Assembly (NCBI GenBank): GCA_031269485.1
Contig: JAISZC010000135.1
Span: 1-62,212, forward strand
Reading direction: 5' to 3'
DNA from: Deltaproteobacteria bacterium
GTDB lineage: Bacteria > Desulfobacterota > Desulfarculia > Adiutricales > Adiutricaceae
DNA: 62,212 nucleotides
Part shown: positions 28,468 to 51,019 of the stretch, in pieces
Numbering within the stretch: position 1 is the first letter of the stretch
Layout of the letters: each line of letters opens with the position of its first letter
Position numbers and translations under genes: made by a program
The notes under the pieces: model-generated
Seen by the model: only the letters and a program-made list of their open reading frames with translations
Told to the model about the DNA's origin: nothing
Database searches by the model: none

Positions 28468-30195
28468 TCAGGCCGGCTCTTTCGTCGGGCTGGCCGGCGG
28501 CTCGTCGGTCTCGGGGTCCTTAAAGTCGGCCGGTCCGGCCAGACGGGCCTGGGCGACGTGACGTACGCGGTCGTCGGGCGGAACGTGAAAAAAGTTCAGC
28601 ACCGAGTCGAAGACCTCCAAGGCGGCCTCGAACTCCTCGGCCACCACCGCGTCGGCCCCCAAGCGGCGCAGCTGATCGGCGGAGAGCAGAAAACGGGTTC
28701 TGGCCAGCACGAAAAGAGAGGGGTTCATGGACTTGGCCTGGACGATGATGCGTCTGGTGGCCAAGGGATCGGGTATGCTGACCGCCAGCAGGGCGGCCCG
28801 GGAGACGCCGACGTGATCCAGCACATGCTCGTTGGCGGCGTCGCCGAAGATGATGGGCTCGCCCATGGCCCGGAAGGACTGGACGCTTTTGGGGTTCATG
28901 TCGATGACGGCGTACTTGCGGCCCGTCAGCCGGCAGGCCCTGGCCACGCCTTGGCCGGCGACCCCGAAGCCGACCACCACGGCGTGGCCGGAGGCCTCCA
29001 CCGGGGGCACGTCGGCGGCGGGCTTTTCCATGTCGGCCAGCTTGGGGGCGACGAAGCGCCCCAAGGCCAAGGCCAGGGGGGTCATGGCCATGGTCAGCAC
29101 GGCCATGTTCAGGAAAATCGTCAGCTCCGAGGTCGTCAGCAAGCCGAGATCTCCGCCGGTCTTGGCCAGCACGAAGGCGAACTCGCCCACTTGGCACAGC
29201 GAAAAGCCGATGAGCGCGGCCACGCGGTTGGTCAGCCCGATGGCCTTCATGGCCAGGGCGCAGCCCGCCAAATTGAGGATCATCACGCCCACGGCCAGGC
29301 CGATGGTCAGGGTCGGCGCCTCGACGAGCGATCTCACGTCCATGCGCAGGCCGATGGAGACGAAAAAGAGGCTGGTGAAGATGTCGCGCATCGGCATCAC
29401 CGAGCCGATGGCCTGGTAGGCGTAAGGGGAGCCGGCGATGACCAGGCCGGCCATGAAGGCCCCCAAAGCCAAGGACAGTCCGGCCTCGGCCGTCAGGAAG
29501 GCCGTGCCCAGGCACACGAGCGCCACGGTGAACATGAAAAGTTCGTTGGACTTGGTGGCGGCCACGCGTTTCATCAGCAGGGGCACGACCCACATGGCCA
29601 GCACGACGACCACGGCCAAGATGATCAGCACCTTGAGGGCCACCACGTAGAGGGGGTCGCCGCCCTGCTGGCCGGCCAGCATGGGGAGGATCAGCACCAG
29701 AGGCACCACGGCCAGGTCCTGGAAGATGAGGATCGCGAAGGCGCCTTGGCCATGGGTGGCGTCCATCTCGCCCCTTTCTTGCAGGAGCTTGAGGACTATG
29801 GCCGTCGACGACAGGGCGAACAGCATGCCCCACACAAGCGACTTGTTCCAGGGGAAGCCGAAAATCATGGCCAGCGGAAAGATCAAGGCGATGCAAAAAA
29901 GCATCTGCAAGCTGCCGCCCAACAAAACCAGCCGTTTTATCTTGACCAAGCTTTGGATGGAAAATTCCAGGCCGATGGTGAACAGCAAAAGCACCACGCC
30001 CAGCTCGGAGAGGACCTCGATCTGCTCGGCGTCGTGGATCAAGCTCAAGCCGTTTGGGCCGACCAGGATGCCGGTGGCCAAAAAGCCCACGATGGCCGGC
30101 ATTTTGAGCTTGAGCCCGAAGTAGATCAGGAGGATGGACAGGGCCAGCAGGGCGATGATTTTGCCGATGAGGAATTCCGCGGACAGTTCGGCCAT
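28468..30195 (-). CDS. CPA2-family cation:proton antiporter with a C-terminal RCK/TrkA-N domain (KefB/C-like)
   Basis: 575 aa from ATG 30195. MAELSAEFLIGKII..., multiple TM helices, and C-terminal HAVVVGFGVAGQGVA (Rossmann GxGxxG). The upstream 260 codons of the track ORF overlap the next gene and were discarded. Confidence 0.85.
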   Translation of the reverse strand: MAELSAEFLIGKIIALLALSILLIYFGLKLKMPAIVGFLATGILVGPNGLSLIHDAEQIEVLSELGVVLLLFTIGLEFSIQSLVKIKRLVLLGGSLQMLFCIALIFPLAMIFGFPWNKSLVWGMLFALSSTAIVLKLLQERGEMDATHGQGAFAILIFQDLAVVPLVLILPMLAGQQGGDPLYVVALKVLIILAVVVVLAMWVVPLLMKRVAATKSNELFMFTVALVCLGTAFLTAEAGLSLALGAFMAGLVIAGSPYAYQAIGSVMPMRDIFTSLFFVSIGLRMDVRSLVEAPTLTIGLAVGVMILNLAGCALAMKAIGLTNRVAALIGFSLCQVGEFAFVLAKTGGDLGLLTTSELTIFLNMAVLTMAMTPLALALGRFVAPKLADMEKPAADVPPVEASGHAVVVGFGVAGQGVARACRLTGRKYAVIDMNPKSVQSFRAMGEPIIFGDAANEHVLDHVGVSRAALLAVSIPDPLATRRIIVQAKSMNPSLFVLARTRFLLSADQLRRLGADAVVAEEFEAALEVFDSVLNFFHVPPDDRVRHVAQARLAGPADFKDPETDEPPASPTKEPA

Positions 30196-30296
30196 AATTA
30201 GCCTTTCGTGCGAGTTCCGGAGCGGTTGACCAAGGCGGCCTCCGAAAGCCAGCTTTGAGGCGCAGGAGGCTTCAGGCCGATCGGCTGAGATTTGGC

Positions 30297-30887
30297 TTAG
30301 GTCCGGTCCTGTTGAGGTTCGTTTTTCTTTAGGCTCAGCCCGATGGAAAAGGCCCGACCCAGGGCCTGGCCCAGCTGGTGGTAGGCGCCGCTGGCGAAAA
30401 TCAAAGGATCGATCGCCACGGGATCTGGTTCGGCGGAGAGGCTGATGGTCCGCGTGTCGGCTTTGACGTCTACGATTTGACCGACGAACATCGTATGGGC
30501 GCCCAGATCGACCTGGCTGCGCAGGGCGCATTCCAGCGTCACAGGGCACTCGGCGACGTAGGGCGCCTCGACGAGATCGCTTCTGACGGCCGTCAGTCCG
30601 GCGATTTTGAACTTGTCGAAGTCGCGGCCCGAGACCAGGCCGACGTAGTCGACCGCGACGGCCAGCGCCGAGCTGGGGCAATTGACGGAAAAAGCCTTGT
30701 TTTTCAGGATGGCCCCATGTGTCCACCGCGAAGGCCGCACCGAAACGCTCACGCAGGGCGGGTCGGAGGACGCGATCCCGCCCCAGGCGGCGGTCATGAC
30801 GTTGGGTCGGCCGTTTTCGTCGTAGGTGGCCACCAGAAAGGCTGGCATGGGAAAAACGATGGGTTTCGGTCCCAGCGAAGTTTTCAT
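30297..30887 (-). CDS. Flavin reductase-like FMN-binding protein (flavoredoxin family)
   Basis: 196 aa. The pattern PMPAFLVATYDENGRPNVMTAAWGGIASSDPPCVSVSVRPSRWTH is typical of the split-barrel flavin reductase family. Confidence 0.75.
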   Translation of the reverse strand: MKTSLGPKPIVFPMPAFLVATYDENGRPNVMTAAWGGIASSDPPCVSVSVRPSRWTHGAILKNKAFSVNCPSSALAVAVDYVGLVSGRDFDKFKIAGLTAVRSDLVEAPYVAECPVTLECALRSQVDLGAHTMFVGQIVDVKADTRTISLSAEPDPVAIDPLIFASGAYHQLGQALGRAFSIGLSLKKNEPQQDRT

Positions 30888-31118
30888 GACTGGCTCCCTG
30901 AGCGCCGCCGCCGGCCAGGTTTGAGGCGGTGGAGCAATTTGGCGTCCGACGCGGCGTCCAGGCCAAATTATAACGCAAACGAGGCCGCGGCTAAAGGGGG
31001 GAGAAAGTCCCGCGCCGGACAGGCGCCATCGTCCGACCGGAACGCGGCGAAGCCGCCGACAACCGGCGCCTCAGGCGGGCGGGCCGCGGAACGGCCCCGC
31101 GTCTCGTTTCGCCGGGGC

Positions 31119-31321: not shown

Positions 31322-31798
31322 ATGCAAGCGTTGGTTGTGTATTCCGGCCACGACGCCCGGAAGCTGGCCGAGGCGGTGGCTGGCGTGCTGCCTGAAGGCT
31401 CGGCCCTCAAGCCGGCGGCCGAGGCCCCCGATCCCCGCGGCTACGATTTGGTCATGATAGGCTTTCATGCCGACGACGGCCGGGCCGACGCCGCCGCCGC
31501 GGCTTTTTTCGAAAAACTCAACGACTGCCGGACGGCCTTCTTTTTCGTCATGAGCGACCGCCCCAACTCGGCCCTGGCCCGCGGCGTGGCCGACGAGACC
31601 AAGCGGCTGCTGGAAAGCCGCGGCAACGTCGTGGTTGGGCATTTCAGCTGCCGGGAGAGCGATTCCGAGGCCGCCGGCGGCTCCTCGAGCGTCTTTCAGT
31701 TCGACGACGACCGCCTTCTGGTCCGGGCCTTCGCCTACGACGTCCTCAACCAGGTGTCGAGCCGGTCGAGCCTGGCCGGCGGCCGCGCCTTGCGCTAG
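31322..31798 (+). CDS. Flavodoxin-like domain protein
   Basis: 158 aa. GGGAGG SD. The MQALVVYSG...YDLVMIGF...FFFV alternating beta-strand pattern resembles short flavodoxin-fold proteins. This is a weak call. The stop codon is TAG. Confidence 0.45.
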   Translation: MQALVVYSGHDARKLAEAVAGVLPEGSALKPAAEAPDPRGYDLVMIGFHADDGRADAAAAAFFEKLNDCRTAFFFVMSDRPNSALARGVADETKRLLESRGNVVVGHFSCRESDSEAAGGSSSVFQFDDDRLLVRAFAYDVLNQVSSRSSLAGGRALR

Positions 31799-32280: not shown

Positions 32281-33579
32281 TCAATGGGCCGCCTGGGCGA
32301 ACTTGGAAATGAAGTTGGCGGCGAAGATGGCGCCCACCACCCAGACCGTGACGGTGATTTGCCGTCTTTGGCCCGAGAGGACCTTCATGAGGAGGTGCAG
32401 CAGCCAGCCCAGCGTCAAGCCGTCAGATATGCGCCAGGTGAAGGTGATGACGATCGCGGTCGCGAAGGCCGGAAAGCACTCCGACCAGTCGTCGAAGCTC
32501 ACCTGGAGGATGGAGCGGATCATCAGCAGGCCAACCAGAACCAGGGCCGGCGCCACGGCGCTGAACGGAATGACCATGAACAACGGCGAGACGAACAGCG
32601 CCAAGCCGAAGAAGAAGGCCACCGTCAGGGCCGTCAGGCCCGTGCGGCCGCCTGCGGCCACGCCAGCTCCGCTTTCGGCGTAGGTGGTGTTGGGCGAAAG
32701 GCCTAAACAACTGCCGACGACCACGCCCACCGAGTCGGCAATGAAGGCTCGGCCCATGCGCGGTCGATAGCGGTCGCCTTCCTGGCCCATGACTCCGAAC
32801 AGCCCCAGAAAGCCGGCCAGGCCGTCGATGATTTCCATGAAGGCGAAAGTCAAGATGAGGGCCCAAAAATCCAGCGAAACGAGCGGCGAGAAGTCGAACT
32901 TGAAGGCGATGGAGCTTAGGCTGGGCGGCAGGCTCACCAGGCCGGCCGACAGCCCGGAGGCGTCGGTGACGCCCAGGCGCAGGCCGATGAGGGTGGTGAC
33001 GACGATGCCTGCCAGGATGGCGTAGCGGAAGCGCGCGGCCAGCAGGGCGCCCATGACCAGAAGGCCGATGCAGGCCAGCAGGGGAGGACCGCTTGACAGG
33101 TTCCCCAAAGAAGGCTGGCCGTGGTTGAAGACCACGATTTGGCTGTGGAGCAGGCCGATGTAGGCGATCATCAGTCCGACGCCGGCGCAGACCCCGTGCT
33201 GGAGGCTTTTGGGCACTTCCTTGAGGACCTTCGCCCGCGCCGGCGACAGCGAGAGAGCCACGAAAACGAGTCCCGAGAAGAGCACCGCCGTGAGGGCCTG
33301 AGGCCACGAGTAGCCCATTTGGACGACCACGGCCACGAAAAAGGCGTTGAGCCCCATCCCCGGGGCCACGGCGAAGGGCAGATTAGCCCCGAAGGCCATG
33401 ATCAGGGTGGCCACGATGACGCCCAAGGCCGTGGCCGTGAACAAGGCCTCGATGGGCAGGCCGGCTTCCGCGACGATGTGCGGGTTGGCGGCCAGCACGT
33501 AGACCATTGAAAAGAAGGTGCTCGCTCCGGCGGCGATCTCGACGGAAGGCTTGAGGCCGTTTTGCTTCAATTGGAACAT
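32281..33579 (-). CDS. NCS2-family nucleobase permease (AzgA / adenine-guanine-hypoxanthine type)
   Basis: 432 aa. EIAAGASTFFSMVYVLAANP and about 12 hydrophobic segments are typical of the AzgA-like NCS2 clade. Confidence 0.85.
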   Translation of the reverse strand: MFQLKQNGLKPSVEIAAGASTFFSMVYVLAANPHIVAEAGLPIEALFTATALGVIVATLIMAFGANLPFAVAPGMGLNAFFVAVVVQMGYSWPQALTAVLFSGLVFVALSLSPARAKVLKEVPKSLQHGVCAGVGLMIAYIGLLHSQIVVFNHGQPSLGNLSSGPPLLACIGLLVMGALLAARFRYAILAGIVVTTLIGLRLGVTDASGLSAGLVSLPPSLSSIAFKFDFSPLVSLDFWALILTFAFMEIIDGLAGFLGLFGVMGQEGDRYRPRMGRAFIADSVGVVVGSCLGLSPNTTYAESGAGVAAGGRTGLTALTVAFFFGLALFVSPLFMVIPFSAVAPALVLVGLLMIRSILQVSFDDWSECFPAFATAIVITFTWRISDGLTLGWLLHLLMKVLSGQRRQITVTVWVVGAIFAANFISKFAQAAH

Positions 33580-33745
33580 AACCTCTTCCTCGCAGGAGTT
33601 GGAAAGGACCTCCGGCCTCGCGCTCGTCCCAAGGCCGGCGCGGAAACGAAAAGGCCCCTTCCGTGGAAAAAGATCCTCGAAAAGGGGTCTTTGCCTTCGA
33701 CCGCCTAAGGTACGGAAGCCGAGCGGGACGCCGCCGGCGGCTTCG

Positions 33746-33916
33746 GATTCGACCGGTCTTCTGGCTTTCGGATCATTCGGCTCGGCCGAGCCTTCCCAAG
33801 CCCATGGGCTCAGTGGCCGGCGCCGGACAAGCAGTCCGTCGCCCCAGCGGCCGTCCGTCCCCGATTACAGCGGCGGGTCCGCCACGGATTTTCACCGTGT
33901 TCCGAGAGATCGAATC
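33746..33916 (-). promoter_or_regulatory. Cobalamin (B12) riboswitch aptamer
   Basis: The minus strand reads GATTCGA...GGAACACGGTGAAAATCCGTGGCGGACCCGCCGCTGTAATCGGGGA...GCCACTG...GGGAAGGC...AGCCAGAAGACCGGTCGAATC. The conserved core (GGUGAAAAUCC..CGG.CCCGCC.CUGUAA) and a B12 box (AGCCAGAAGACC) are present. The P1 helix GATTCGA/TCGAATC closes the aptamer. Confidence 0.88.
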
Positions 33917-33923
33917 GTCGTCC

Positions 33924-33952
33924 ATTAAACCCCATGGACCGGCGGCTGTCAA
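33924..33952 (-). promoter_or_regulatory. Sigma70 promoter driving the riboswitch (TTGACA-N17-TTTAAT)
   Basis: -35 at 33952-33947 and -10 at 33929-33924. The predicted TSS falls at about 33917, exactly at the 5' end of P1. Confidence 0.65.
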
Positions 33953-34065: not shown

Positions 34066-34140
34066 GCGCCATTAGCTCAATGGTAGAGCAAATGACTCTT
34101 AATCATTAGGCTGAAGGTTCGAGTCCTTCATGGCGCACCA
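34066..34140 (+). tRNA. tRNA-Lys, anticodon CUU, with encoded CCA
   Basis: Hand-folded cloverleaf. Acceptor GCGCCAT/ATGGCGC. D arm GCTC-aatggta-GAGC. Anticodon arm AATGA-ctCTTaa-TCATT. T arm GAAGG-ttcgagt-CCTTC. Discriminator A plus CCA. Confidence 0.9.
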
Positions 34141-37890: not shown

Positions 37891-39273
37891 TCACGCTTGG
37901 CGGCGGCCGCCCTGGGCCGCGGGAGGAGTTGCGGGGAACGGCCGCGCGGCGACGACGACGAACTTTTCGTCGACGCTTTCGACGACGCCGGCCAAGCTCG
38001 CGTGGACGGGCGCCCCCAAGGCGCCTTCGGGCGGCGCGGCCACAAGCTGGCCCAAAGCCACCACGTCGCCTGGCGCCGCCAGGGGCCGGCAGGGGACGCC
38101 CAGATGCTGCTTCAGCGCCAGGCGCACCCGCTCGACGCGACCGGGATAGGGCGTCAGGGGCGCCTTGAGGCCCTCGTAGGCGCTCAGCCCCAGCCGCTGG
38201 ACCAGCCGGGGAATGGGAAAGCGGCGCAGTTCGCGGAAGCGGTTGACCGCCGTCGGGGTCCTCTTCTGAAAGCTTTTGGCCGCGGCTGGACCCAGCTGGC
38301 CCTTGAGCTCACGGTTGAGGCGCCAGGGCTGGAGCCCCATGACGCAGGCCTGCTCGCACAGCCCGCACTCGCAGCACAGAAAGGCGCCGAAGGCCGTCTC
38401 GGGGCCGTCGCCGACCTGGCCGTAGGAGGCCAGGCGCATGAGGCGGTCAGGGTGGAGACGGTGCCCAAGCAGGTTGCGGGGGCATAGCTCGGTGCAGAAC
38501 ATGCAGTGGCAGCAGGCCGCCTTGGCCGTCCGGAGCATGTCCGACAGACGGCGGCGCTTGGCCTCGGCCCGAGGGTGGCGGCGGTCGAGGACGATCAGGC
38601 CTTTGGTGGCCTTCGTCACCGGGCTGGACAAATCCTCTTCGAGACGGCCCATCATGGGGCCGCCGTTGATGACCGTCGGGTCCGGGACGAGCGCTCCGCC
38701 GCTGGCCTCGATGATCTCGGAGATGGACACGCCCAGCGGGACCTTGTAGGTGGCCGGCCGCTTGACCTCGCCGGTCACGGTGAGCCAAGTCTCGGTCACC
38801 GGCCGGCCCTCCAAGGCCGCGGCCATGTTAAGCAGGCTCTCGACGTTGACCACCACCGTTCCGCAGGCCAGCGGCAGGCCGCCTTCGGGCACGATGCGGC
38901 CCAGAACCTCGTAGACCAGCACCTGCTCGTCGCCCATGGGATAATAATTGCCCAAAGTCTTGACCGACAGCGTCGGCCGGGCGGCGGTCGCGCGCCGCAA
39001 GGCTTCCACCGCGCGGCCGTATTTCTCCTTGATCGCAAAGACGCCGCCCTTGGCGCCCAGCGCCGCCGTCAAGACCTCCAAGGCCCGCGCCAGACGGTCG
39101 GCCTCCGCTTCGGCCAGCTGCTGGTCGACCTTCAGCAACGGCTCGCACTCGGCGCCGTTGACGAGGATCCACTCCGGCGAGGAATTGAGCTTGACGGCGG
39201 CGGGAAAGCCCGCCCCGCCGGCGCCGACCACGCCGGCCGCGGCCACGGCGGAGATGAATTCGGCCTTGTCCAT
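37891..39273 (-). CDS. pduS: PduS-like cobalamin reductase (RnfC/Nqo1-like flavoprotein with two 4Fe-4S motifs)
   Basis: 460 aa from ATG 39273; an alternative TTG at 39354 abuts the eutA stop. GVVGAGGAGFPAAVKL. SLBB region. CCHCMFCTELCP and CCECGLCEQAC are ferredoxin-type clusters. Confidence 0.75.
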   Translation of the reverse strand: MDKAEFISAVAAAGVVGAGGAGFPAAVKLNSSPEWILVNGAECEPLLKVDQQLAEAEADRLARALEVLTAALGAKGGVFAIKEKYGRAVEALRRATAARPTLSVKTLGNYYPMGDEQVLVYEVLGRIVPEGGLPLACGTVVVNVESLLNMAAALEGRPVTETWLTVTGEVKRPATYKVPLGVSISEIIEASGGALVPDPTVINGGPMMGRLEEDLSSPVTKATKGLIVLDRRHPRAEAKRRRLSDMLRTAKAACCHCMFCTELCPRNLLGHRLHPDRLMRLASYGQVGDGPETAFGAFLCCECGLCEQACVMGLQPWRLNRELKGQLGPAAAKSFQKRTPTAVNRFRELRRFPIPRLVQRLGLSAYEGLKAPLTPYPGRVERVRLALKQHLGVPCRPLAAPGDVVALGQLVAAPPEGALGAPVHASLAGVVESVDEKFVVVAARPFPATPPAAQGGRRQA

Positions 39274-39350
39274 GCAAAAGCCCCGTTTTGGCGAGAGCGC
39301 CGTTTGATCGTCGGCCTTCGGCCTGGCGGACGTCCGACGGCGGCCTAAGT

Positions 39351-40817
39351 TCAACGCCCGAAAATAAGCGTTTTGACCACCACCGGCACCACCCGGCCGT
39401 TGACCACGGGCTGGCCCACGTCGATGTAGTCGCCGTTTTCGACCCTGACGGAATCGAGCGCGATGACCGTCTTGCCCGGCAAGGCCGCCTTCAGGGTCAA
39501 CCCGAGACTTTTGGCCAAATCCTCCTCGGCGACCACCACCAGCAGATCGCTGCCGGCCAAGTAGTCGTCAAGGCCTTCAAGCAGGCGGTCGCGCAGAAAG
39601 AGGACCTCCTCGTAGGAGGGGTTTTTCGGGCCCTTGAAGGCCACCGCCAAAGGCTGATAGCCGCCGGTCTCGCCCTCCTTGAACCAGGCGATCTTCTCGC
39701 TGAGCCGGGAGCTGAACCAGCGGCAGCCGTCGGCCTCGTCGTCGGGACTGAGCTTGAGGATGGGCAAGTTTTTCAGCGGCAAAACGCTCGGGTCGCTCAC
39801 CGTGACGGTCGAGCCGCTGAGCTCCAGGGAGTTCGAGCCGGCCCCCACCACGGTGGCTCTGATGGTTTCGGCCGGCCGAAGCCGCGGCACGGCCTGGAAG
39901 GCTTCGCAGCGGCGCGCGGCCCGGCCCAGCAACGGGCCGACGTCGCCATACATGAAAGGGTCGGCCGGCTCCTCGTCGGCGTAGACGAAGTCGGCCACTC
40001 CGCCGGAGAAGGTCAGCCCGGCCAAGGGCCGCAGCTCGTTGAGAGGGTGGGCGGTCACGAAAAGCGCCAAGTCGGCCTCCGCTTGGGCCCGCGTGGCGGG
40101 CGTCAGCCCCAAGCCCAGCGACTGGGCCATGATCAGAGCCAGACGCTCGCAGATTTTCGTCAAGTCAGCCAGCTGCGCCGGCTCGCCTTCCTCCAGCCTC
40201 AGGCCCAGCCCGGCGGCCAGCTTCTGGACCTTGGGGGCGACGCGCCGGAGGCGAAGCGTCGCCTGGTCCACGACGATTTGGCGGCCGCCGATGTCCAGGC
40301 ACGAGGTGTCGGCCGGGCGGCCGTCGATGAAGACGGCCGTGTTGGTGGTGCCGCCGCCGATGTCGAGGTTGGCCAGAGCCCGGCCGGGGGCGTTTTTGCT
40401 CATTTCGGCCGTGCCGGCCCCGCGGCCGGCCAGGATGCTTTCAAGATCGCTGCCGGCGGTGGCCACCACGAAGTCCCCGGCCAGGCCGCTCAAGGTCCGC
40501 AGCACGGCCTGGCTGTTTTCCTTGCGGGCCGTCTCGCCGGTGATGATGACCGCCCCGGCCGAGACGTCGGCCGGCTTGAAGCCGGCGAGACGGTACTCCT
40601 CCTCGACGATGCGCAGCACCCCCTCGGCGTCGATGACGGCGGGGCCCAGCAGGGGCGTGAATCGGATCTCGCCTTGATGGACGATTTCCTTTTCGACGAT
40701 GCGAATCCGGGGCACCGAGGCTGCTCCGGCCACATTTTCCATGGTCAGGCGGCTGAAAATGATTTGGGTGGTGGTGGTGCCCAAATCGATGCCCACGCTG
40801 ACAAGGCTCTCGGCCAT
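39351..40817 (-). CDS. eutA: Ethanolamine ammonia-lyase reactivase
   Basis: 488 aa. SVGIDLGTTTTQIIFSRL... and the repeated actin/HSP70-like ATPase folds (IGGGTTN) are typical of EutA. Confidence 0.88.
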   Translation of the reverse strand: MAESLVSVGIDLGTTTTQIIFSRLTMENVAGAASVPRIRIVEKEIVHQGEIRFTPLLGPAVIDAEGVLRIVEEEYRLAGFKPADVSAGAVIITGETARKENSQAVLRTLSGLAGDFVVATAGSDLESILAGRGAGTAEMSKNAPGRALANLDIGGGTTNTAVFIDGRPADTSCLDIGGRQIVVDQATLRLRRVAPKVQKLAAGLGLRLEEGEPAQLADLTKICERLALIMAQSLGLGLTPATRAQAEADLALFVTAHPLNELRPLAGLTFSGGVADFVYADEEPADPFMYGDVGPLLGRAARRCEAFQAVPRLRPAETIRATVVGAGSNSLELSGSTVTVSDPSVLPLKNLPILKLSPDDEADGCRWFSSRLSEKIAWFKEGETGGYQPLAVAFKGPKNPSYEEVLFLRDRLLEGLDDYLAGSDLLVVVAEEDLAKSLGLTLKAALPGKTVIALDSVRVENGDYIDVGQPVVNGRVVPVVVKTLIFGR

Positions 40818-40836
40818 CGTCGCAGTTCCCGCCCGC

Positions 40837-41592
40837 TCAGATGCCCGAATGCTCAGGCGTGAAGCCTGGGGGCAGATACTTGAACATCAGCACGTAAAAC
40901 AGGCTCGAGAGCCGGTTGAGGGCCATGATGACGTCGTCACGGTCCGACCGGCCGAATTCGTCCTGGAAGGCCGCGGCCGCGGCCAGCTCGACCTGCCGGA
41001 CCTCGCTTCTGAGCTCGTTGAGGGCCGTCGACAAGCGGCCCATCCGCCAAGAAGCCTTCAGGTGGCGGTGCCCGAAATACTTGACCGGGTTGTGGCTGCG
41101 CTCGCGCACCGCCTGCGCGTCGAGGCCCGCCAGCTTGAACTCGGGAACTTTTTCGCCGCGCAGCTCGGCTGGCAAAAGAGCCCGGACGAAGTTCAAAATT
41201 TCTTCGAGCTCGGTCGTGAAATCTTCGCGTCCAGCCTCGACGCCAAGATGCTGGGCTGAGATGATTTTGGCGCACAGCGAGTCGAGGCGGCCGCGCCAGA
41301 TGATGACGGGGTGATTTTTGGGCACGAGCCGGCGGCCGTTGAGGTGGGTCAGGCCCTCGGGCTTATGGTCCAAGACCTCGCCGCCGGGCCCCATGAAGGT
41401 CCCAGGCGGCAGCGGCTTGAACATGCCGTCGCGCGCGCCGACCCCGGGCTCCTCCCAGACGACCTTGATGTTGCGCTCTTTGAGGAAGTCCAGAGCCGCA
41501 GGCGTCGGCACCACTCCGGCGGGCACGGTCCAGGCGGGCACCGTGCGGTCCATCAGGATGCGCCTGAGCTCCGTTTCGGTCAGCGCTTTCAT
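40837..41592 (-). CDS. eutT: ATP:cob(I)alamin adenosyltransferase (EutT / PduO-fold)
   Basis: 251 aa from ATG 41592 (AGGAGGG SD). The N-terminus LTETELRRIL...VVPTPAALDFLKERNIKV resembles EutT. C-terminal ALNRLSSLFYVLMF resembles the adenosyltransferase helix bundle. Confidence 0.65.
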   Translation of the reverse strand: MKALTETELRRILMDRTVPAWTVPAGVVPTPAALDFLKERNIKVVWEEPGVGARDGMFKPLPPGTFMGPGGEVLDHKPEGLTHLNGRRLVPKNHPVIIWRGRLDSLCAKIISAQHLGVEAGREDFTTELEEILNFVRALLPAELRGEKVPEFKLAGLDAQAVRERSHNPVKYFGHRHLKASWRMGRLSTALNELRSEVRQVELAAAAAFQDEFGRSDRDDVIMALNRLSSLFYVLMFKYLPPGFTPEHSGI

Positions 41593-41639
41593 GTGCCCTC
41601 CTGCTTGAGAACGGCGGCGACGAAAAGGCCGGCCGCCGG

Positions 41640-41712
41640 CCAACCAACCAACCAACCAACCAACCAACCAACCAACCAAGTTCAACCAAGTTCAATCAAG
41701 TTCAATCAAATC
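41640..41712. repeat. (CCAA)10 microsatellite followed by about 10-bp CAAGTTCAA(C/T) repeats. On the coding strand it reads (TTGG)n.
   Basis: CCAA x10 spans exactly 41640-41679, followed by ccaagttcaa x3 variants. It lies between the eutQ stop and the eutT start. Confidence 0.95.
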
Positions 41713-41742
41713 AAACAATGGTCAGCGGCTGGCCGGTCAGGC

Positions 41743-42201
41743 TCATTGCTCGTACCAGTTGGCCGGGTAGACGACGTAGAAAAAACGCGTAAAGCCAGGA
41801 GTCGAAAACTCGATGGTGCTCTTGGCCGGGATGAAGATCACGTCGCCGGTCTGGCCGGAGACCTTGCGGCCGTCGATGAGGATGTCGAGCTGTCCGTCGA
41901 TGATGTAGTCGACCTCGTCGTAGTTCAGAGTCCACTTGAAGGTCGAGCGGTCCATTTCCATGACCCCGAAGCCCACCCTGGGGCTTTCCTGGAGGGTGGA
42001 GATGTCCTTGAGGAAAACCTTGTCGCCGGGCTTGCCGGTGTCGAAGGGCTCGGGCTTGATCTCGGCGGTCCGCACGCTCATCACGCCGCTGGGGTCGACC
42101 GTCTTGGATCCGCCGGCCGGGCCGGCGGCCAAGATCTCGGTCAGCACCTTGCGGACCAGTTTTTCCAGCTCTTTTTTGTCAATTTCGCTCATATGGCTCA
42201 C
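41743..42201 (-). CDS. eutQ: Cupin-fold ethanolamine utilisation protein EutQ
   Basis: 152 aa with GTG 42201, or ATG 42192. The C-terminal cupin WTLNYDEVDYIIDGQLDILIDG...GDVIFIPAKS is typical of EutQ. Confidence 0.85.
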   Translation of the reverse strand: MSHMSEIDKKELEKLVRKVLTEILAAGPAGGSKTVDPSGVMSVRTAEIKPEPFDTGKPGDKVFLKDISTLQESPRVGFGVMEMDRSTFKWTLNYDEVDYIIDGQLDILIDGRKVSGQTGDVIFIPAKSTIEFSTPGFTRFFYVVYPANWYEQ

Positions 42202-42319
42202 CCGTCCGCTTTGCGGCGCTTTGTCTGGTCGGCGATGGGTCGGGCCGGTCGCGCGTCGTCGCGACGACGACCGCTGGCCGGCGGAGGGAGGAGGCGGCCC
42301 CGCGAGGCCGCGCTCGCCG

Positions 42320-42592
42320 CTATTTCAGCAGTTTTTCGTCAACTTCCAAGCTGTCGATGATGCCCACGACCACGGCGTCCACGGGGCTGTCGTGATCGCC
42401 CAGGGAATTGCGGGCCACGCTGCCTTTGGTCACCAGCACGTCGTCGCCCGCGCCCGCGCCGATGGTGTCCACGGCTACGATGGTCTCCGCGCCGATTCCG
42501 CCGAACGTCTTGACCACCAGCAGCTTGCGGCCGTCGAGCTTGGGGTCTTTCTTGGTGGCCCAGACGTTGCCTAAAACCTTGCCTATGATCAT
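42320..42592 (-). CDS. eutN: BMC vertex pentamer protein (EutN/CcmL/PduN family)
   Basis: 90 aa from ATG 42592 (alternative TTG at 42619). MIIGKVLGNVWATKKDPKLDGRKLLVVK...VAVDTIGAGAGDDVLV is the canonical BMC-P sequence. Confidence 0.88.
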   Translation of the reverse strand: MIIGKVLGNVWATKKDPKLDGRKLLVVKTFGGIGAETIVAVDTIGAGAGDDVLVTKGSVARNSLGDHDSPVDAVVVGIIDSLEVDEKLLK

Positions 42593-42674
42593 GAGGTTTT
42601 CCGTCGTTGAGGTAAGCAAAGGGGCTTGGCCCTGTCGCCCGGTCCGACCGTCTCGGCCAATTCGGCCGGTCGGT

Positions 42675-43379
42675 TCAGCCGGCGACGACGGCGATTTTCT
42701 TGGCCAACAGCCAGTCGCGGGCCAGCGGCGTCAGCACGTCGCCCGGCGTCAGCCTCAGGACGCGAGCCTCGGGGCCGGTAGAGGGCGGAAAGAGCTCCTG
42801 GACCCTGGTTTCAGTCAGCACGCGGGTTCGGGGCGTCAAGTTCGGCGTCAAGTTCGGCGGCAACGGCGTCAAGTTCGACGGCCGGCCGGCGGCCGGGTCG
42901 GCGAGGGCGTCCAGCAGGCGGCTTTCATCGACGATCCGCAAGCCCGCGTTCTTGAGAGCGGCCTCGCAAGCCAGATAAACGGAAACGAGCGACCGCGGGG
43001 CGGTGTCCTTGTGTCGCCGCCAGACCAGGCCCTCTTCGAGGGCCACGGCTCGCCGGCCCTCCAGCAGCGCCGACAAAAGGACCATGCCTTCGACGGTGCA
43101 GCCTTCGTCGCCTTGGGCTGTCCGCACCAAGGCCTGGAGCCCCAAGGACGTCAGCAAAACCGGGGCCGGGGGCCATTGGCCCGGTTCCCTGCCTTCGGCC
43201 GGCGTGATCTCGTGGCGGGCCTCCAGGGCGGCGCGCGTTTGCGGCGCGAGTCCGTCGAGAGAGCCGACCGTCAAAAGGGGCGTCCTGGGCGCCGGGACGG
43301 CGGCCCCGTCGGAGGCGGCCTTGAGGCGCTTGAGGATTTCGGTCGTCACGAGTTCGACCAAGGCGTCGTCGATCTGCAT
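42675..43379 (-). CDS. pduM: PduM-like microcompartment structural protein
   Basis: 234 aa. The N-terminal amphipathic helix DDALVELVTTEILKRLK resembles the PduM N-terminus and encapsulation peptides. The C-terminal LTPGDVLTPLARDWLLAKKI motif is as in PduM/EutT N-domains. Contains an LTP(N/L)-rich linker. Confidence 0.45.
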   Translation of the reverse strand: MQIDDALVELVTTEILKRLKAASDGAAVPAPRTPLLTVGSLDGLAPQTRAALEARHEITPAEGREPGQWPPAPVLLTSLGLQALVRTAQGDEGCTVEGMVLLSALLEGRRAVALEEGLVWRRHKDTAPRSLVSVYLACEAALKNAGLRIVDESRLLDALADPAAGRPSNLTPLPPNLTPNLTPRTRVLTETRVQELFPPSTGPEARVLRLTPGDVLTPLARDWLLAKKIAVVAG

Positions 43380-43555
43380 GTCTTCTCTCCTTGGCGCCGG
43401 GTTCGTCGAATCCCGAAGGTTCGGGGCGGGCGAAGGCGTCGGGCGGCTCGGCCTGGACTTGGCCCCTCAAGAGCTCGGCGAGGCGCCTGAGGGGCTTTGG
43501 CGAGGCCGAGGCGCGCCAAAAGCTCCAGGCCGGCCAAGGGCCGCCGGCTCGGCTC

Positions 43556-44473
43556 TCAGAAAGGCTCGTCGGGCCCGGCGGCCGGACAGCCCAGCGCGAT
43601 GCCTGCCGGGGTGACCAGGTCGGGCCGGTGGGCCACCCGGACCTTAAGGCCGGTTTCTCGGGCCACGATGGGGCCGGCCTGCGGGGCGGCGGAGCAGCCG
43701 CCGGCCAGGATCAGCTCCTTGACCACATGGCCGGCCAAGCCGGCCTTGAGAATGAGGCCCATCTTGGACAGCACGGGGGCCGTCACGGCGGCCACGACCG
43801 CCCGATTCTCCGGCGCGAGCTTGAAGGACTCGGCCGCCTCGAAGTCGAGGCGAAAGCGTCCGGCCAAGGTCAGCGTCAGATGATGCCCGCCCGTGGGCTC
43901 GTCGAAGGACTTGATCAGGCGGCCTCGGCGGAAAATCGCCGCGCCCGTGGTGCCGCCGCCGAGATCGGCCACCGCCCCGTCAATGAGGCCCAGCACCAGA
44001 TTGGCGGCCTCCGGCTCGTTCCAGACGGCCGTCGTCTCCAGGCCGGCCGCTTCGGCGACGTGACGGTGGGTGGCCGAATCGCGCTCGGAGGTGCCCGGCG
44101 GAACGGCCACGGCCGCGTGACGAAGCTTGACGCCCAGGCGGCTCTCAAGCGTGGCCTTGAGCGACGACGTGACGGACCTGGCGGCCTCGAAGTCCACCAC
44201 CAGCCCGTCGCGGACCGCCGAGGCCTCGCGGCGGGCCAAGCCTAGCGGCCGGCCCTCGGCGTCCAGCGCGACCAGCACGATGGAGTCCGTGCCCAGGTCG
44301 AGCCCCACGCGCAGCGCCTGCCCCGGCTGCGGCGGGACGGGGAGCGTGAGGCGGTCGGCGAGCTCGTCGAGAAAGGCGGCCGGGTCGGCGACGCTGGGCG
44401 GCCGGTCGACGAGGTCGGGGACCTCCCCGAAGGGCGGCTCGTCGCGGTCGGCCGCGCGTCCGGGGTCGGTCAC
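43556..44473 (-). CDS. eutJ: EutJ chaperone-like (actin/HSP70-fold ATPase)
   Basis: 305 aa with a GTG start and a GGAGGA SD. VGLDLGTDSIVLV, EPEAANL, DLGGGTTG and LAGG are typical of EutJ. Confidence 0.85.
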   Translation of the reverse strand: MTDPGRAADRDEPPFGEVPDLVDRPPSVADPAAFLDELADRLTLPVPPQPGQALRVGLDLGTDSIVLVALDAEGRPLGLARREASAVRDGLVVDFEAARSVTSSLKATLESRLGVKLRHAAVAVPPGTSERDSATHRHVAEAAGLETTAVWNEPEAANLVLGLIDGAVADLGGGTTGAAIFRRGRLIKSFDEPTGGHHLTLTLAGRFRLDFEAAESFKLAPENRAVVAAVTAPVLSKMGLILKAGLAGHVVKELILAGGCSAAPQAGPIVARETGLKVRVAHRPDLVTPAGIALGCPAAGPDEPF

Positions 44474-44493
44474 GCGTCCTCCGGCTGGTGCGC

Positions 44494-45015
<522 letters not shown>

Positions 45016-45074
45016 TCGAGCCGTCCTTGCGTTTAGCCGACGGCAATTCCCTCGCGGTCGCCGCGGTCATGAGC

Positions 45075-45377
45075 TCAGGCCTTGGGCGCGGTCTCCAAGG
45101 TCGGCAGGATGAACTCGACCTCCTGATGCGGCCTGGGGATGACGTGGACGCTCTTGAGCTCGCCGACCCGGCCGGCCGCGGCCGCGCCGGCGTCGGTGGC
45201 CGCCTTGACGGCCCCCACGTCGCCTCTGACCATGACGGTCACCAGGCCGCCCCCCACCAAGACCTTGCCGATGAGGGTCACGTTGGCGGCCTTGACCATG
45301 GCGTCGGCCGCCTCGATGGCCCCGACCAGGCCTTTGGTCTCTATCAAGCCCAAGGCTTGCTGATTGCCCGTTGCCAT
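45075..45377 (-). CDS. eutM: BMC-H shell protein (EutM/PduA type)
   Basis: 100 aa. It is nearly identical to the core of the downstream paralog at both the protein and DNA levels. Confidence 0.92.
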
Positions 45378-45588
45378 TTCTTTCCTCCTTGAGGCCGCCT
45401 CGGGCGGCCTGGGCCTGGCGGCCCGTCACGCTAAGTTCAGTCCTCCGCGGCTTCCGTTCGGAGACCGGAGGGCGGTTGTCGCCTAGGAATAATCGCCGGC
45501 GCGTCGGCAAGCCGGCCCGGCGTCGACCCGACAAGGCGGCCCTGGCGCCGGCGAGGCCCGCAGGGCTCGGCCGTCGGGCCCGAGTCGG

Positions 45589-47058: not shown

Positions 47059-47136
47059 AAGTCGCGCTCCTGACGGAGCCGTCCGACGGGGTCGGCCGTG
47101 GGCCCGTCCCCAGGCCCACGGTCCTGACGGACGGGC

Positions 47137-47793: not shown

Positions 47794-47856
47794 TGTGAGG
47801 CCTCTCCTGATGAGCCGGAAAACGGCGGGCCGCCCAAAGGGGCCCGGCCGAGGCGG

Positions 47857-48726: not shown

Positions 48727-48807
48727 CGTCCAACCCCCATGAGGTGTTGATTGTCGACGTTCGGCGCGGGCCCGGGCAAGCTCAGGCCGGCCGGCTCGTC
48801 CGGCGGC

Positions 48808-50172: not shown

Positions 50173-50520
50173 GGCTACCTCCAAGATGCGCCGCCGAGGG
50201 CGGCCGGCTCTCGCCGAAAGCCCGCCGGAGGGCGAGCGGCCGGCGGCGCGGCTCGTGAGGGAAGCCGCGGCCGGCCTAAGAAGCCGACGACGGGCCGCGT
50301 CCGCCCTCGTCGGCTTCAAGCTCGAGCTTAAGTTTGAGATCCTTGGGCTTGCGGTTCCAATTTAAAGGCTCCAATCTTGATTTGGCGAACCCCGCCGCGG
50401 CAAGGTTCAACTCTCCGCCGCTGGCGGCGGCCGGCCTTTGGCGCCGGCCGGCGGCTCGCGCGTCCGAGTCCGAGTCCGACTGGCCGTCGAGCCCGGGGCG
50501 GGCTTTTCGAGGCCGGCCGC

Positions 50521-51009: not shown

Positions 51010-51019
51010 GAAGCCGCCC

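What the first reader, a model, noticed from the sequence alone, without database searches (positions are those of the whole stretch)
32281..33952. Cobalamin riboswitch controlling an NCS2 (purine-type) permease
- **Seen in the sequence, promoter:** a TTGACA-N17-TTTAAT promoter (33952-33924, minus strand) places the predicted start site at the first base of the P1 helix (GATTCGA, paired with TCGAATC at 33752-33746).
- **Seen in the sequence, aptamer:** it contains the cobalamin core GGUGAAAAUCCGUGGCGGACCCGCCGCUGUAAUCGGGGA, the GCCACUG...GGGAAGGC element and a B12 box AGCCAGAAGACC.
- About 165 nt of GC-rich hairpins follow. These include a possible anti-SD pairing of UCCUUUCC with the GGAAGAGG SD. 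The only downstream gene is an AzgA-like NCS2 nucleobase permease.
- **Established knowledge:** B12 riboswitches usually control btuB/btuFCD, cob/cbi genes, metE or nrd. This permease family carries adenine, guanine or hypoxanthine.
- **Inference:** the permease may import a corrinoid lower-ligand base (adenine or other purines, or benzimidazoles) for cobamide assembly or remodelling. That would fit a window full of corrinoid-dependent enzymes (EutBC and two MttB-family genes).
Basis: partly seen in the sequence, partly recalled or inferred. Interest (0 to 1): 0.7.

Follow-up and report, generated by a model that had tools for sequence, protein, structure and literature searches.

The report
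B12 riboswitch controlling a purine-type permease
A genuine vitamin-B12-sensing RNA switch sits in front of a purine-type base importer, and the pairing recurs in a whole bacterial lineage, which suggests that uptake of a purine-like base is tied to B12 supply, a link I could not find reported.

Summary
Rfam finds a full-length cobalamin riboswitch at 33929-33734 (-) (80.4 bits against a 31.5-bit threshold). It lies between a conserved TTGACA-N17-TAnnnT promoter and a monocistronic 432-aa AzgA-type NCS2 permease (33579-32281).

The pairing is not chance:
- 9 of 10 relatives of the permease sampled by protein (52-73% identity; Adiutricales-type Thermodesulfobacteriota) carry the same riboswitch directly upstream.
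- A scan for the RNA alone returned 7 more riboswitch-permease units.
- 30 more distant homologues scanned with Rfam have no cobalamin riboswitch. Four have purine riboswitches directly upstream instead.

It is a conserved antiterminator/terminator module, so this is most likely an OFF switch acting on transcription.

The permease keeps every residue that contacts the purine ring. It has a clade-specific change at three pocket positions that in AZG2 lie beside the purine C6 substituent.

The substrate and the reason for B12 control are inferred, not shown. My best reading is import of a purine-like lower-ligand base for cobamide assembly. The main rival is purine salvage during B12 shortage. 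I found no published report of this pairing.

The parts
33924..33952 (-). Sigma-70-type promoter: -35 TTGACA (33952-33947), 17-nt spacer, -10 TTTAAT (33929-33924)
   Evidence: Read from the sequence. The same arrangement is found at the same distance from P1 in all 9 clade loci aligned. The generic scan missed it because of its -10 rule.
33734..33929 (-). Cobalamin riboswitch aptamer (RF00174). P1 is 33916-33910 paired with 33752-33746. The L5 region GGCGGACCCGCCG is at 33883-33871. The B12 box is at 33766-33755.
   Evidence: 80.4 bits, E 3e-18, full model 1-189. The core is invariant across 9 orthologous loci.
33715..33744 (-). Hairpin directly after P1 (GAAGCCG...CGGCUUC, with the inner element GGCGGCGUCCCGC)
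   Evidence: Predicted fold. The GGCGGCGCCCCGCC element is shared by most GC-rich relatives. Its role is unknown.
33683..33710 (-). Switching element CCUUAGGCGGUCGAAGGCAAAGACCCCU. Either a small hairpin P13 forms (CCUU/AAGG), presenting GGCGGUC in its loop, or an antiterminator hairpin forms (GGCGGUC paired with GACCCCU).
   Evidence: This is the most conserved block outside the aptamer in 17 loci. The antiterminator helix is 80% paired, with 2 pairs changed on both sides. It folds at -8.7 kcal/mol. L13 position 3 co-varies with the last L5 nucleotide. Mutual exclusivity and the L5-L13 kissing contact are inferred.
33644..33692 (-). Terminator-like hairpin (AAAGACCCCUUUU...GGAAGGGGCCUUU) followed by the U-tract UUUUCGUUU. 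Its 5' arm is the 3' arm of the antiterminator.
   Evidence: -17.9 kcal/mol, z -2.0. At the same position the AT-richer relatives have textbook terminators with T7-T9 tracts, for example L094 at -33.4 kcal/mol, z -4.3.
33582..33639 (-). Second GC-rich hairpin (33639-33609), then the Shine-Dalgarno sequence AGGAAGAGG (33590-33582)
Evidence: Read from the sequence and predicted fold.
32281..33579 (-). Monocistronic gene for a 432-aa AzgA-type NCS2 permease (predicted purine-base:H+ symporter)
   Evidence: PF00860, E 8e-37. AZG1 and AZG2 are the best solved relatives. The purine-contact residues Y27, M75, N78, D252, T299, Y300 and E302 are conserved. The next gene is convergent.

Best explanation
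Shown: a cobalamin riboswitch, transcribed from its own conserved promoter, lies in the 5' leader of a single gene for an AzgA-type nucleobase permease. The unit is conserved as a cassette across an Adiutricales-type lineage of Thermodesulfobacteriota.

Inferred mechanism:
- When the cobamide coenzyme is scarce, the segment GGCGGUC pairs with GACCCCU (the antiterminator). RNA polymerase reads through and the permease is made.
- When the coenzyme binds, the aptamer captures GGCGGUC as the loop of a small hairpin P13, through a kissing contact with loop L5 (GACCCGCC).
- This frees GACCCC to form the terminator stem before a U-tract, so transcription stops. In the GC-rich relatives, where this segment reads GACCUCCUUUCU and resembles the 3' end of 16S rRNA, it may also mask the ribosome-binding site.

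Inferred function: the permease imports a purine-like base only under cobamide limitation. The most likely purpose is to supply a lower-ligand base, a purine or modified purine and less probably a benzimidazole, for cobamide nucleotide-loop assembly or remodelling. This would be analogous to the B12-riboswitch-controlled CblT transporter, which carries alpha-ribazole.
For: Regulatory unit:
- RF00174 at 80.4 bits, full length.
- 9 of 10 protein-sampled relatives carry RF00174 on the same strand within about 150-200 nt of the start codon.
- A tandem duplicate kept its own riboswitch (L086/L088).
- An RNA-only pattern scan returned 8 loci, and 7 of them precede permease orthologues.
- In a neighbour-joining tree the riboswitch-bearing proteins form one clade.
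- 30 more distant loci scanned with Rfam have no cobalamin riboswitch, and 4 have purine riboswitches directly upstream. My own covariance model found none in 82 loci.

Mechanism:
- The promoter is conserved.
- The switching block is conserved, and clear terminators follow it in relatives.
- Pair counts support the antiterminator helix modestly.
- There is one L5/L13 covarying position.

Function:
- Apart from the riboswitch itself, the genomic context gives no clue, because the neighbouring genes differ from locus to locus.
- From established knowledge, known B12-riboswitch regulons consist of cobamide synthesis, cobamide or precursor transport, and B12-independent isozymes.
- The pocket residues that contact the purine ring are retained. 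Three positions differ consistently from the purine-riboswitch-controlled relatives: E249 or A (AZG2 D345), P296 (AZG2 T392) and A or G at 301 (AZG2 V397). In AZG2, D345 and T392 contact the substituent on C6.
- The same riboswitch and platform type precedes an RlmN/Cfr-family adenine C-methylase homologue that lacks the RNA-binding N-terminus. This hints at a purine-modifying branch of the B12 regulon in this lineage.
- From memory: Desulfovibrio vulgaris makes guanyl- and hypoxanthyl-cobamides, and other anaerobes make adeninyl-, 2-methyladeninyl- and purinyl-cobamides.
Against: - No ligand binding, regulation or transport was measured.
- No cobamide synthesis gene (cobT, cobS, cobU, cbi, bza, bluB) was seen in the window or beside any unit, and no whole genome of the lineage could be inspected. 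I therefore do not know whether these organisms assemble cobamides at all.
- Adenine, guanine and hypoxanthine are available inside cells, and only trace amounts are needed for cobamides. A proton symporter dedicated to that purpose is not obviously necessary.
- The fully canonical purine-ring contacts argue against benzimidazoles.
- The Neisseria homologue has the same pocket signature but no riboswitch.
- Evidence for the antiterminator and the kissing loop rests on few independent changes.
- The window's own terminator is weak (z -2.0, interrupted U-tract).
Confidence: 0.45

Rival explanations
1. Compensatory purine salvage. The permease carries ordinary adenine, guanine or hypoxanthine and is switched on in B12 shortage because de novo purine synthesis then falters. 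With corrinoid-dependent methyl transfer blocked (MetH, the CoFeSP/Wood-Ljungdahl route, MttB-type systems), folate would be trapped as 5-methyl-THF and 10-formyl-THF would run short. This follows the same bypass logic as metE or nrd under B12 riboswitches.
For: - All purine-ring-contacting residues are conserved.
- Relatives of the family are under purine riboswitches, or sit beside adenine deaminase and xanthine dehydrogenase, so the family's normal role is purine salvage or catabolism.
- purA lies two genes downstream in five GC-rich relatives, and a type-I phosphoribosyltransferase is adjacent in L087.
- The window's organism relies heavily on corrinoid and C1 metabolism.
- From established knowledge, the methyl-folate trap is a recognised consequence of B12 deficiency.
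Against: - No other purine, thymidylate or folate gene was seen under a cobalamin riboswitch in these loci.
- purA and the phosphoribosyltransferase are separate transcription units (gaps of 300-400 nt, or opposite strand), and they are absent from the window and from the Adiutrix-type loci.
- The clade-specific change in the pocket is unexplained if the substrates are the ordinary purines.
- No purine riboswitch or other purine-sensing element accompanies the unit.
Confidence: 0.3
2. Metabolic re-routing. When corrinoid-dependent catabolism (ethanolamine through EutBC, methylamines through MttB, the acetyl-CoA pathway) cannot run, the cell turns to external purines as an alternative nitrogen, carbon or energy source, and the riboswitch gates that switch.
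For: - The window encodes a full eut microcompartment operon and two MttB systems.
- Some relatives of the permease sit next to purine-catabolic genes (L090).
Against: - No purine-catabolic genes lie near any riboswitch-bearing unit.
- To my knowledge, no precedent exists for a B12 riboswitch gating an unrelated catabolic route.
Confidence: 0.1
3. 7-deazapurine salvage. The permease imports queuine, preQ0 or preQ1 to bypass the cobalamin-dependent epoxyqueuosine reductase QueG when B12 is scarce.
For: - It fits the bypass logic of B12 regulons.
- The remodelled pocket would allow a substrate that is not a canonical purine.
Against: - No queuosine genes lie near any unit.
- From established knowledge, the known preQ and queuine transporters belong to other families (YhhQ, ECF QrtT).
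- This reading is entirely speculative.
Confidence: 0.05
4. Chance juxtaposition or a decayed riboswitch: the aptamer is a relic and does not control the permease.
For: - The window's terminator is weak, with an interrupted U-tract.
Against: - 17 independent loci keep the promoter, aptamer, platform and permease in the same order and on the same strand despite differing neighbours.
- The aptamer core is invariant.
- A duplicated copy retained its riboswitch.
Confidence: 0.02

Closest known systems
Cobalamin riboswitches (Rfam RF00174) in btuB, cob/cbi, metE and nrd leaders
   Same: Full-length match to the family model, B12 box, conserved core, P1, 5'-leader position, and an expression platform with a terminator. 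OFF logic is inferred.
   Different: The target gene is an NCS2/AzgA nucleobase permease. That class did not turn up as a cobalamin-riboswitch target in the searchable literature. The lineage also has its own conserved platform block, GGYGGUYGANGGYAAAGRCCYCC.
CblT/CblS alpha-ribazole salvage, a transporter of a lower-ligand derivative (Firmicutes; CblT is cited in PMC6461909; its control by a B12 riboswitch is from memory)
   Same: A small-molecule importer for the lower-ligand part of cobamides, expressed only when B12 is low. This is the functional analogy behind my best explanation.
   Different: CblT is an ECF-type substrate-capture component that carries a riboside. This protein is a 14-TM-type NCS2 proton symporter with a free-base purine pocket, and the two are not homologous. 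The lower-ligand role here is inferred, not shown.
AzgA-type permeases controlled by purine riboswitches (B. subtilis pbuG type; here L022, L048, L059, L033)
   Same: Same protein family, same single-gene arrangement, and a riboswitch with a terminator in the leader.
   Different: The sensor is a cobalamin aptamer rather than a purine aptamer. No RF00167 hit occurs in the window or in any clade locus. The TM8 and TM10 pocket motifs differ: FVDLFDTVGT becomes FMEVxDGLAG or FLAIFDSLGG, and STVTTYVES becomes SPNTTY(A/G)ES.
Characterised AzgA-like transporters: E. coli AdeP, AdeQ, GhxP; A. nidulans AzgA; Arabidopsis AZG1 and AZG2 (PDB 8irl, 9j12)
   Same: 30-37% identity to the E. coli proteins. 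The equivalents of AZG2 Y56, M138, T395, F396 and E398, and of AzgA N131, D342 and E394, are conserved.
   Different: The equivalents of AZG2 D345, T392 and V397 are replaced (E or A, P, and A or G). The substrate has not been tested.

Membership tests
Cobalamin riboswitch (Rfam RF00174) | Covariance-model score above the curated gathering threshold over the whole model | tested here: met
   80.4 bits against 31.5, E 3e-18, model positions 1-189 of 189, not truncated.
Cobalamin riboswitch (Rfam RF00174) | B12 box and conserved core motifs closed by a P1 helix | tested here: met
   AGCCAGAAGACC at 33766-33755; GGUGAAAAUCC, GCCACUG and GGGAAGGC are present; P1 is GAUUCGA/UCGAAUC. The core is invariant in 9 orthologous leaders.
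Cobalamin riboswitch (Rfam RF00174) | Located in the 5' leader of the regulated gene, on the same strand, with an expression platform | tested here: met
   Order is promoter, aptamer, platform of about 155 nt, then ATG at 33579. A terminator-like hairpin with a U-tract is present and is conserved as clear terminators in relatives.
Cobalamin riboswitch (Rfam RF00174) | Binds a cobamide coenzyme and represses expression | not testable with these tools
   Needs in-line probing or ITC, plus reporter or transcription-termination assays.
Class I (AdoCbl-selective) cobalamin riboswitch | Peripheral extension of P6 and an L5-L13 kissing loop to the platform | tested here: inconclusive
   A 40-60-nt variable insert lies between GGGGAC and GCCACUG, and the P6-extension part of the model is matched. 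The candidate L13 GGCGGUC is complementary to L5 GACC(C)GCC, with one R-Y covarying position and 2 mismatching loci. Selectivity between AdoCbl and other cobamides cannot be read from the sequence.
AzgA-like subfamily of NCS2/NAT nucleobase transporters | PF00860 domain, with closest characterised relatives in the AzgA/AZG group rather than the UapA/XanQ group | tested here: met
   PF00860 E 8e-37 over residues 14-385. The only PDB sequence matches are AZG1 and AZG2. Sources name the relatives 'AGZA family' or 'NCS2 family permease'.
AzgA-like subfamily of NCS2/NAT nucleobase transporters | Substrate-site residues in TM1, TM3, TM8 and TM10 (AzgA N131, D342, E394; AZG2 Y56, M138, T395, F396, E398) | tested here: met
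   Y27, M75, N78, D252, T299, Y300 and E302 align to these positions. The peripheral positions equivalent to AZG2 D345, T392 and V397 are changed clade-wide.
AzgA-like subfamily of NCS2/NAT nucleobase transporters | Transports adenine, guanine or hypoxanthine with protons | not testable with these tools
   Needs uptake assays, for example in an E. coli strain lacking adeP, adeQ, ghxP and ghxQ.
Purine-riboswitch-controlled purine permease (pbuG type) | RF00167 purine aptamer in the leader | tested here: not met
   No RF00167 hit in the window or in any of the 17 clade loci. It is present directly upstream of 4 Firmicute homologues.
B12-regulon lower-ligand transporter (CblT type) | Homology to the ECF substrate-capture component CblT | tested here: not met
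   The protein matches only PF00860. The resemblance is one of regulatory logic, not of family.
B12-regulon lower-ligand transporter (CblT type) | Genomic or functional link to nucleotide-loop assembly (cobT, cobS, cobU, cblS) | tested here: not met
   No such gene in the 62-kb window or within 4-6 kb of the clade loci whose neighbours were examined. Whole genomes could not be examined.

The most novel reading that the evidence does not exclude
This permease clade may be the first dedicated importer of free cobamide lower-ligand bases, either unusual purines such as 2-methyladenine or purine itself, or benzimidazoles. Together with the RlmN/Cfr-like radical SAM enzyme found behind the same riboswitch type (L098), it would define a previously unrecognised B12-regulated module for acquiring and modifying purinyl lower ligands in Adiutricales-type bacteria.
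Probability: 0.25. Interest if true: 0.8.

Novelty: new variant of a known kind. Interest (0 to 1): 0.6.

Why it matters
- Genes behind B12 riboswitches have repeatedly pointed to missing parts of cobamide biology, including transporters, cobalt uptake, lower-ligand synthesis and B12-independent isozymes.
- How free lower-ligand bases enter cells is unresolved, as is how purinyl cobamides such as the 2-methyladeninyl form get their bases. To my knowledge no transporter for a free lower-ligand base has been identified.
- A lineage-wide purine-type permease repressed by B12, with a remodelled substrate pocket, is a concrete and cloneable candidate.
- If the explanation is instead purine salvage during B12 shortage, it would be the first riboswitch-level link between cobamide status and purine supply in bacteria, a regulatory counterpart of the methyl-folate trap.
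- Either outcome can be tested with standard uptake, reporter and cobamide-profiling experiments.

Tried and rejected
I used them as an outgroup instead.
- The metagenome scan with the single protein found nothing.
- The window's own protein is not in the encoding-contig index, which cost one look-up.
- NCBIfam has no model matching the permease.
- The generic promoter scan found no promoter, because of its -10 rule. I set that result aside in favour of conservation.
- Folding the whole leader gave an uninformative result (z +0.21). Only the local elements and the comparison between loci were useful.
- My own covariance model R1 found no cobalamin switch in 82 distant loci. That set contained no positive control for divergent switches, so I rely mainly on the 30 loci scanned with Rfam.
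- Gene neighbourhood as a clue to function was rejected, because the neighbours differ between loci. An ABC transporter is divergently adjacent in the GC-rich relatives but absent from the window.
- Literature searches for the pairing found nothing: cobalamin riboswitch with purine permease, NCS2, xanthine/uracil/guanine/adenine permease, or lower ligand with permease.
- Searches for Smac51 and for Adiutrix with cobalamin gave nothing usable.
- I considered structure prediction and did not run it, because the tools return no ligand-contact information.
Full report
1. THE OBSERVATION

Rfam's cobalamin model (RF00174) matches window 33929-33734 on the minus strand at 80.4 bits. The gathering score is 31.5, the E-value is 3e-18, and the match covers model positions 1-189 without truncation. 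It is the only riboswitch in the 62-kb window.

- -35 TTGACA at 33952-33947, a 17-nt spacer, and -10 TTTAAT at 33929-33924.
- P1 formed by GAUUCGA (33916-33910) and UCGAAUC (33752-33746).
- The B12 box AGCCAGAAGACC at 33766-33755.

About 155 nt further on, an ATG at 33579 opens a 432-aa ORF that ends at 32281. The ORF is PF00860 (E 8e-37). Its only solved relatives by sequence are the plant purine and cytokinin transporters AZG1 and AZG2. NCBIfam has no model for it.

Codon-position GC and Pfam show that the next real gene is a convergent flavodoxin at 31322-31798 (+). The permease is therefore monocistronic. A tRNA-Lys gene lies divergently upstream at 34066-34140.

The window also holds:
- An ethanolamine microcompartment operon with EutA, EutB, EutC, EutQ, EutP, EutN, shell proteins and a PduO-type adenosyltransferase.
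- One MttB gene with an in-frame UAG and a PYLIS element.
- A second MttB gene without UAG.

No cobamide-synthesis gene is present in the window.

2. IS THE PAIRING MORE THAN CHANCE?

The protein search found a discrete group of about 100 clusters at 52-73% identity, after which scores drop sharply. Sources name them 'Deltaproteobacteria bacterium' MAGs and 'Candidatus Adiutrix sp.'. Adiutrix belongs to Thermodesulfobacteriota, order Adiutricales.

Protein-first sampling.
- Nine have an RF00174 hit (55-80 bits) on the same strand directly upstream: L081-L088 and L102.
- Two of the nine are tandem paralogues on one contig, and each has its own riboswitch.
- The exception is a Neisseria sp. protein nested inside the clade (64-70% identical to the Adiutrix-type members). 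Its 88-nt AT-rich leader has no riboswitch. This looks like loss after horizontal transfer.

RNA-first sampling. I scanned metagenomes for an RNA-only pattern: the B12 box, a gap, then the conserved platform block.
- The scan returned eight loci.
- Seven precede permease orthologues at 52-55% identity, and Rfam confirms the aptamer in all seven.
- The eighth precedes a different gene (see section 7).

Outgroup.
- 30 loci with more distant homologues (38-47% identity; Spirochaetes, Bacteroidota, Firmicutes, Desulfovibrionaceae and others) have no cobalamin riboswitch by Rfam.
- Four Firmicute loci carry a purine riboswitch directly upstream.
- A Spirochaete homologue lies beside adenine deaminase and xanthine dehydrogenase.
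- A covariance model built from the nine clade aptamers found nothing in 82 distant loci. That set contained no divergent cobalamin switch to act as a positive control.

In a neighbour-joining tree the riboswitch-bearing permeases form a single clade. Their neighbouring genes differ from locus to locus: an ABC transporter, a CCA-adding-enzyme-like gene and purA, ilvD and gpsA, pepF, or a hydantoinase. What is conserved is the cassette of promoter, riboswitch and permease.

3. HOW THE SWITCH MOST LIKELY WORKS

All nine leaders aligned have a TTGACA-like -35 box, a spacer of about 17 nt and a TAnnnT -10 box ending 7-9 nt before P1. The generic scan missed the window's promoter only because its -10 box has T at position 2.

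The strongest conservation outside the aptamer is the block (A)CC..GGYGGUYGANGGYAAAGRCCYCC. In the window this is CCUUAGGCGGUCGAAGGCAAAGACCCC at 33710-33684. Three observations suggest what it does.

- The terminator. GRCCYCC is the 5' arm of a hairpin followed by a U-tract. In the AT-richer relatives these are textbook intrinsic terminators with T7-T9 tracts, for example L094 at -33.4 kcal/mol, z -4.3. In the window it is a weaker hairpin, AAAGACCCCUUUU...GGAAGGGGCCUUU, followed by UUUUCGUUU (-17.9 kcal/mol, z -2.0).
- The antiterminator. GGYGGUY can pair with GRCCYCC across the purine-rich loop GANGGYAAA, which would act as an antiterminator. It folds at -8.7 kcal/mol in the window. Across 17 sequences, 80% of cells are paired, and two pairs are changed on both sides. 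Only 4-9 of 500 shuffles reach the observed values, and the helix does better than all slid registers on percentage paired. This is modest support, because most columns hardly vary.
- The kissing loop. Alternatively the flanking (A)CC(U) and (A)GG(U) can pair, forming a small hairpin that presents GGYGGUY as a loop. That loop is complementary to the invariant L5 region GACC(C)RCC of the aptamer. The only variable L5 nucleotide, G or A, tracks the third L13 nucleotide: G with C or U in 12 of the 14 loci printed (L081 and L088, read, fit too), A with U in two loci, and mismatches in two.

This matches the L5-L13 kissing-loop principle known from class I cobalamin riboswitches (established knowledge). 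It gives a coherent OFF model:
- The bound aptamer captures L13.
- The antiterminator cannot form.
- The terminator forms and transcription stops.

In the GC-rich relatives the same segment reads GACCUCCUUUCU, resembling the 3' end of 16S rRNA, and it is complementary to their AGAAAGGA-type Shine-Dalgarno regions. It may therefore also act on translation in those loci.

Everything in this section is inference from sequence and comparison. Nothing was measured.

4. WHAT THE PERMEASE IS LIKELY TO CARRY

I aligned the protein to AZG2, for which adenine- and zeatin-bound structures have been described (PMC11992111), and to AzgA mutational data (PMC11527162).

The residues that contact the purine ring are all retained:

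| Window residue | Equivalent |
|---|---|
| Y27 | AZG2 Y56 |
| M75 | AZG2 M138 |
| N78 | AzgA N131 |
| D252 | AzgA D342 |
| T299 | AZG2 T395 |
| Y300 | AZG2 F396 (ring stacking) |
| E302 | AZG2 E398, AzgA E394 |

A planar purine-like base is therefore the expected substrate.

The clade also differs consistently from its purine-riboswitch-controlled and other relatives in the same motifs:
- TM8 changes from FVDLFDTVGT to FMEVxDGLAG or FLAIFDSLGG.
- TM10 changes from GTSTVTTYVES to G(L/I/V)SPNT(T/A)Y(A/G)ES.

Three changed positions correspond to AZG2 D345, T392 and V397. In AZG2, D345 and T392 contact the substituent on purine C6, and V397 contributes a backbone contact. This suggests an altered substrate preference but does not prove one. 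The riboswitch-less Neisseria protein shares the signature.

5. WHY B12 CONTROL?

From established knowledge, genes behind cobalamin riboswitches fall into three groups: cobamide synthesis, transport of cobamides, cobalt or precursors, and B12-independent substitutes for B12-dependent enzymes.

Reading 1, a precursor transporter (confidence 0.45). The permease is a B12-repressed importer of a lower-ligand base, functionally like CblT but unrelated to it.
- For: purinyl cobamides are made by related anaerobes (from memory: guanyl- and hypoxanthyl-cobamide in Desulfovibrio vulgaris). The pocket is remodelled. A riboswitch of the same type controls an RlmN/Cfr-like adenine C-methylase homologue (section 7).
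- Against: no link to loop-assembly genes was seen. Ordinary purines are already available inside the cell.

Reading 2, a substitute (confidence 0.3). Purine salvage would compensate for folate trapping when corrinoid-dependent methyl transfer stalls.
- For: the canonical purine contacts, the family's usual role, and loose synteny with purA in the GC-rich relatives.
- Against: it does not explain the pocket changes, and no purine-sensing element accompanies the unit.

Minor rivals:
- Switching to purines as a substrate when corrinoid-dependent catabolism is off (0.1).
- 7-deazapurine salvage bypassing QueG (0.05).
- Chance juxtaposition, which the conservation excludes.

6. COMPARISON WITH WHAT IS KNOWN, AND NOVELTY

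The RNA is an ordinary member of RF00174. The protein is an ordinary member, by sequence, of the AzgA-like NCS2 subfamily. What is new is the pairing, which is conserved across a lineage, together with the lineage's own platform module.

Full-text searches combining 'cobalamin riboswitch' or 'B12 riboswitch' with purine, xanthine, uracil, guanine or adenine permease, with NCS2, or with lower ligand plus permease found no report of the pairing. A large comparative study of cobamide genes mentions only CblT as a transporter related to the lower ligand. I cannot exclude a listing in regulon databases that I could not search.

I rate it a new variant of a known kind, namely a B12-riboswitch-controlled transporter, with interest 0.6. 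The association is solid and testable, and it bears on an open question. The functional meaning is still open.

7. OTHER THINGS SEEN

- L098 carries the 3' half of the same aptamer (the contig end cuts the rest), then the same platform and terminator. What follows is a 314-aa RlmN/Cfr-family radical SAM protein. It scores 182 bits on TIGR00048, below the 290-bit cutoff, and matches only profile positions 68-349, so it lacks the N-terminal RNA-binding part. A 550-aa protein of unknown function comes next. RlmN and Cfr methylate adenine at C2 and C8, and 2-methyladenine is a natural cobamide lower ligand whose origin, as far as I know, has no assigned gene (one search found none).
- L096 has a second cobalamin riboswitch immediately after the permease gene, facing the contig end.
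- Among the Firmicute homologues: L059 shows purine and guanidine-I hits in tandem before the permease; L033 has a ZMP/ZTP riboswitch just after it; L002 has a THF riboswitch 1.4 kb upstream.

Noticed in passing
L098:1-2827 (JGI contig Ga0153928_1009139): The same cobalamin riboswitch 3' half, platform block (GGTGGTTGACGGTAAAGGCCTCC) and terminator precede a different gene. It is a 314-aa RlmN/Cfr-family radical SAM protein lacking the N-terminal RNA-binding domain (TIGR00048 at 182 bits, below the 290 cutoff). A 550-aa protein of unknown function follows. It is a possible free-adenine C-methylase, and so a candidate source of the 2-methyladenine lower ligand. This is speculative.
   Followed up: partly
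L096:205-478 (-): A second cobalamin riboswitch (97 bits) lies directly downstream of the riboswitch-controlled permease gene, facing the contig end. The gene it controls is not on the contig.
   Followed up: no
L086:1-7290 and L088:3680-5290 (one contig, GCA_031263525.1 JAISFP010000295.1): The riboswitch-permease cassette is duplicated in tandem (P0056 and P0032). The copies are separated by an insertion carrying HipA-like and AAA-ATPase-like genes. In the P0056 copy the AzgA N131 equivalent is replaced (GMGIIGFF).
   Followed up: partly
L059:3598-3854 (Thermotalea metallivorans): A purine riboswitch hit (80.8 bits) is immediately followed by, and overlaps by 16 nt, a guanidine-I riboswitch hit (68.6 bits against a 63-bit threshold), upstream of an AzgA-type permease. 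It may be a tandem of two riboswitch classes, or a borderline false hit.
   Followed up: no
L002:2148-4963 (Clostridiales UBA8955); L033:2543-2623: In L002 a THF riboswitch is followed by two small ORFs (170 and 180 aa) and then an AzgA-type permease. In L033 a ZMP/ZTP riboswitch starts 21 nt after the permease gene. Both are folate or purine sensors sitting next to family members.
   Followed up: no
window 52187-53701 (+) and 57667-59103 (+): Two MttB-family methyltransferase genes are present. The first has an in-frame UAG at 53168 and a PYLIS_3 element (73 bits), so it encodes pyrrolysine. The second has no UAG. An APH-family phosphotransferase gene lies downstream of each (54628-55866, after an intervening HAD-hydrolase gene at 53826-54467; and 59423-60634).
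   Followed up: partly
window 37891-51358 (-): An ethanolamine-utilisation microcompartment operon: EutP, shell proteins, EutB, EutC, an aldehyde dehydrogenase, EutN, EutQ, a PduO-type adenosyltransferase, EutA, and an RnfC/Nuo51-like flavoprotein. No cobalamin riboswitch is associated with it.
   Followed up: partly
window 28468-30978 (-): The 836-aa ORF is probably over-extended. The Na+/H+ exchanger and TrkA_N domains start at residue 281, and a separate flavin-reductase gene (30297-30887, -) occupies another frame over its 5' part.
   Followed up: no
L089:4600-6296 (Neisseria sp. Ec49-e6-T10, CP152375.1): A permease of the riboswitch clade (64-70% identical to the Adiutrix-type members) occurs in a betaproteobacterium with an AT-rich 88-nt leader and no riboswitch. 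This looks like horizontal transfer with loss of B12 control.
   Followed up: partly
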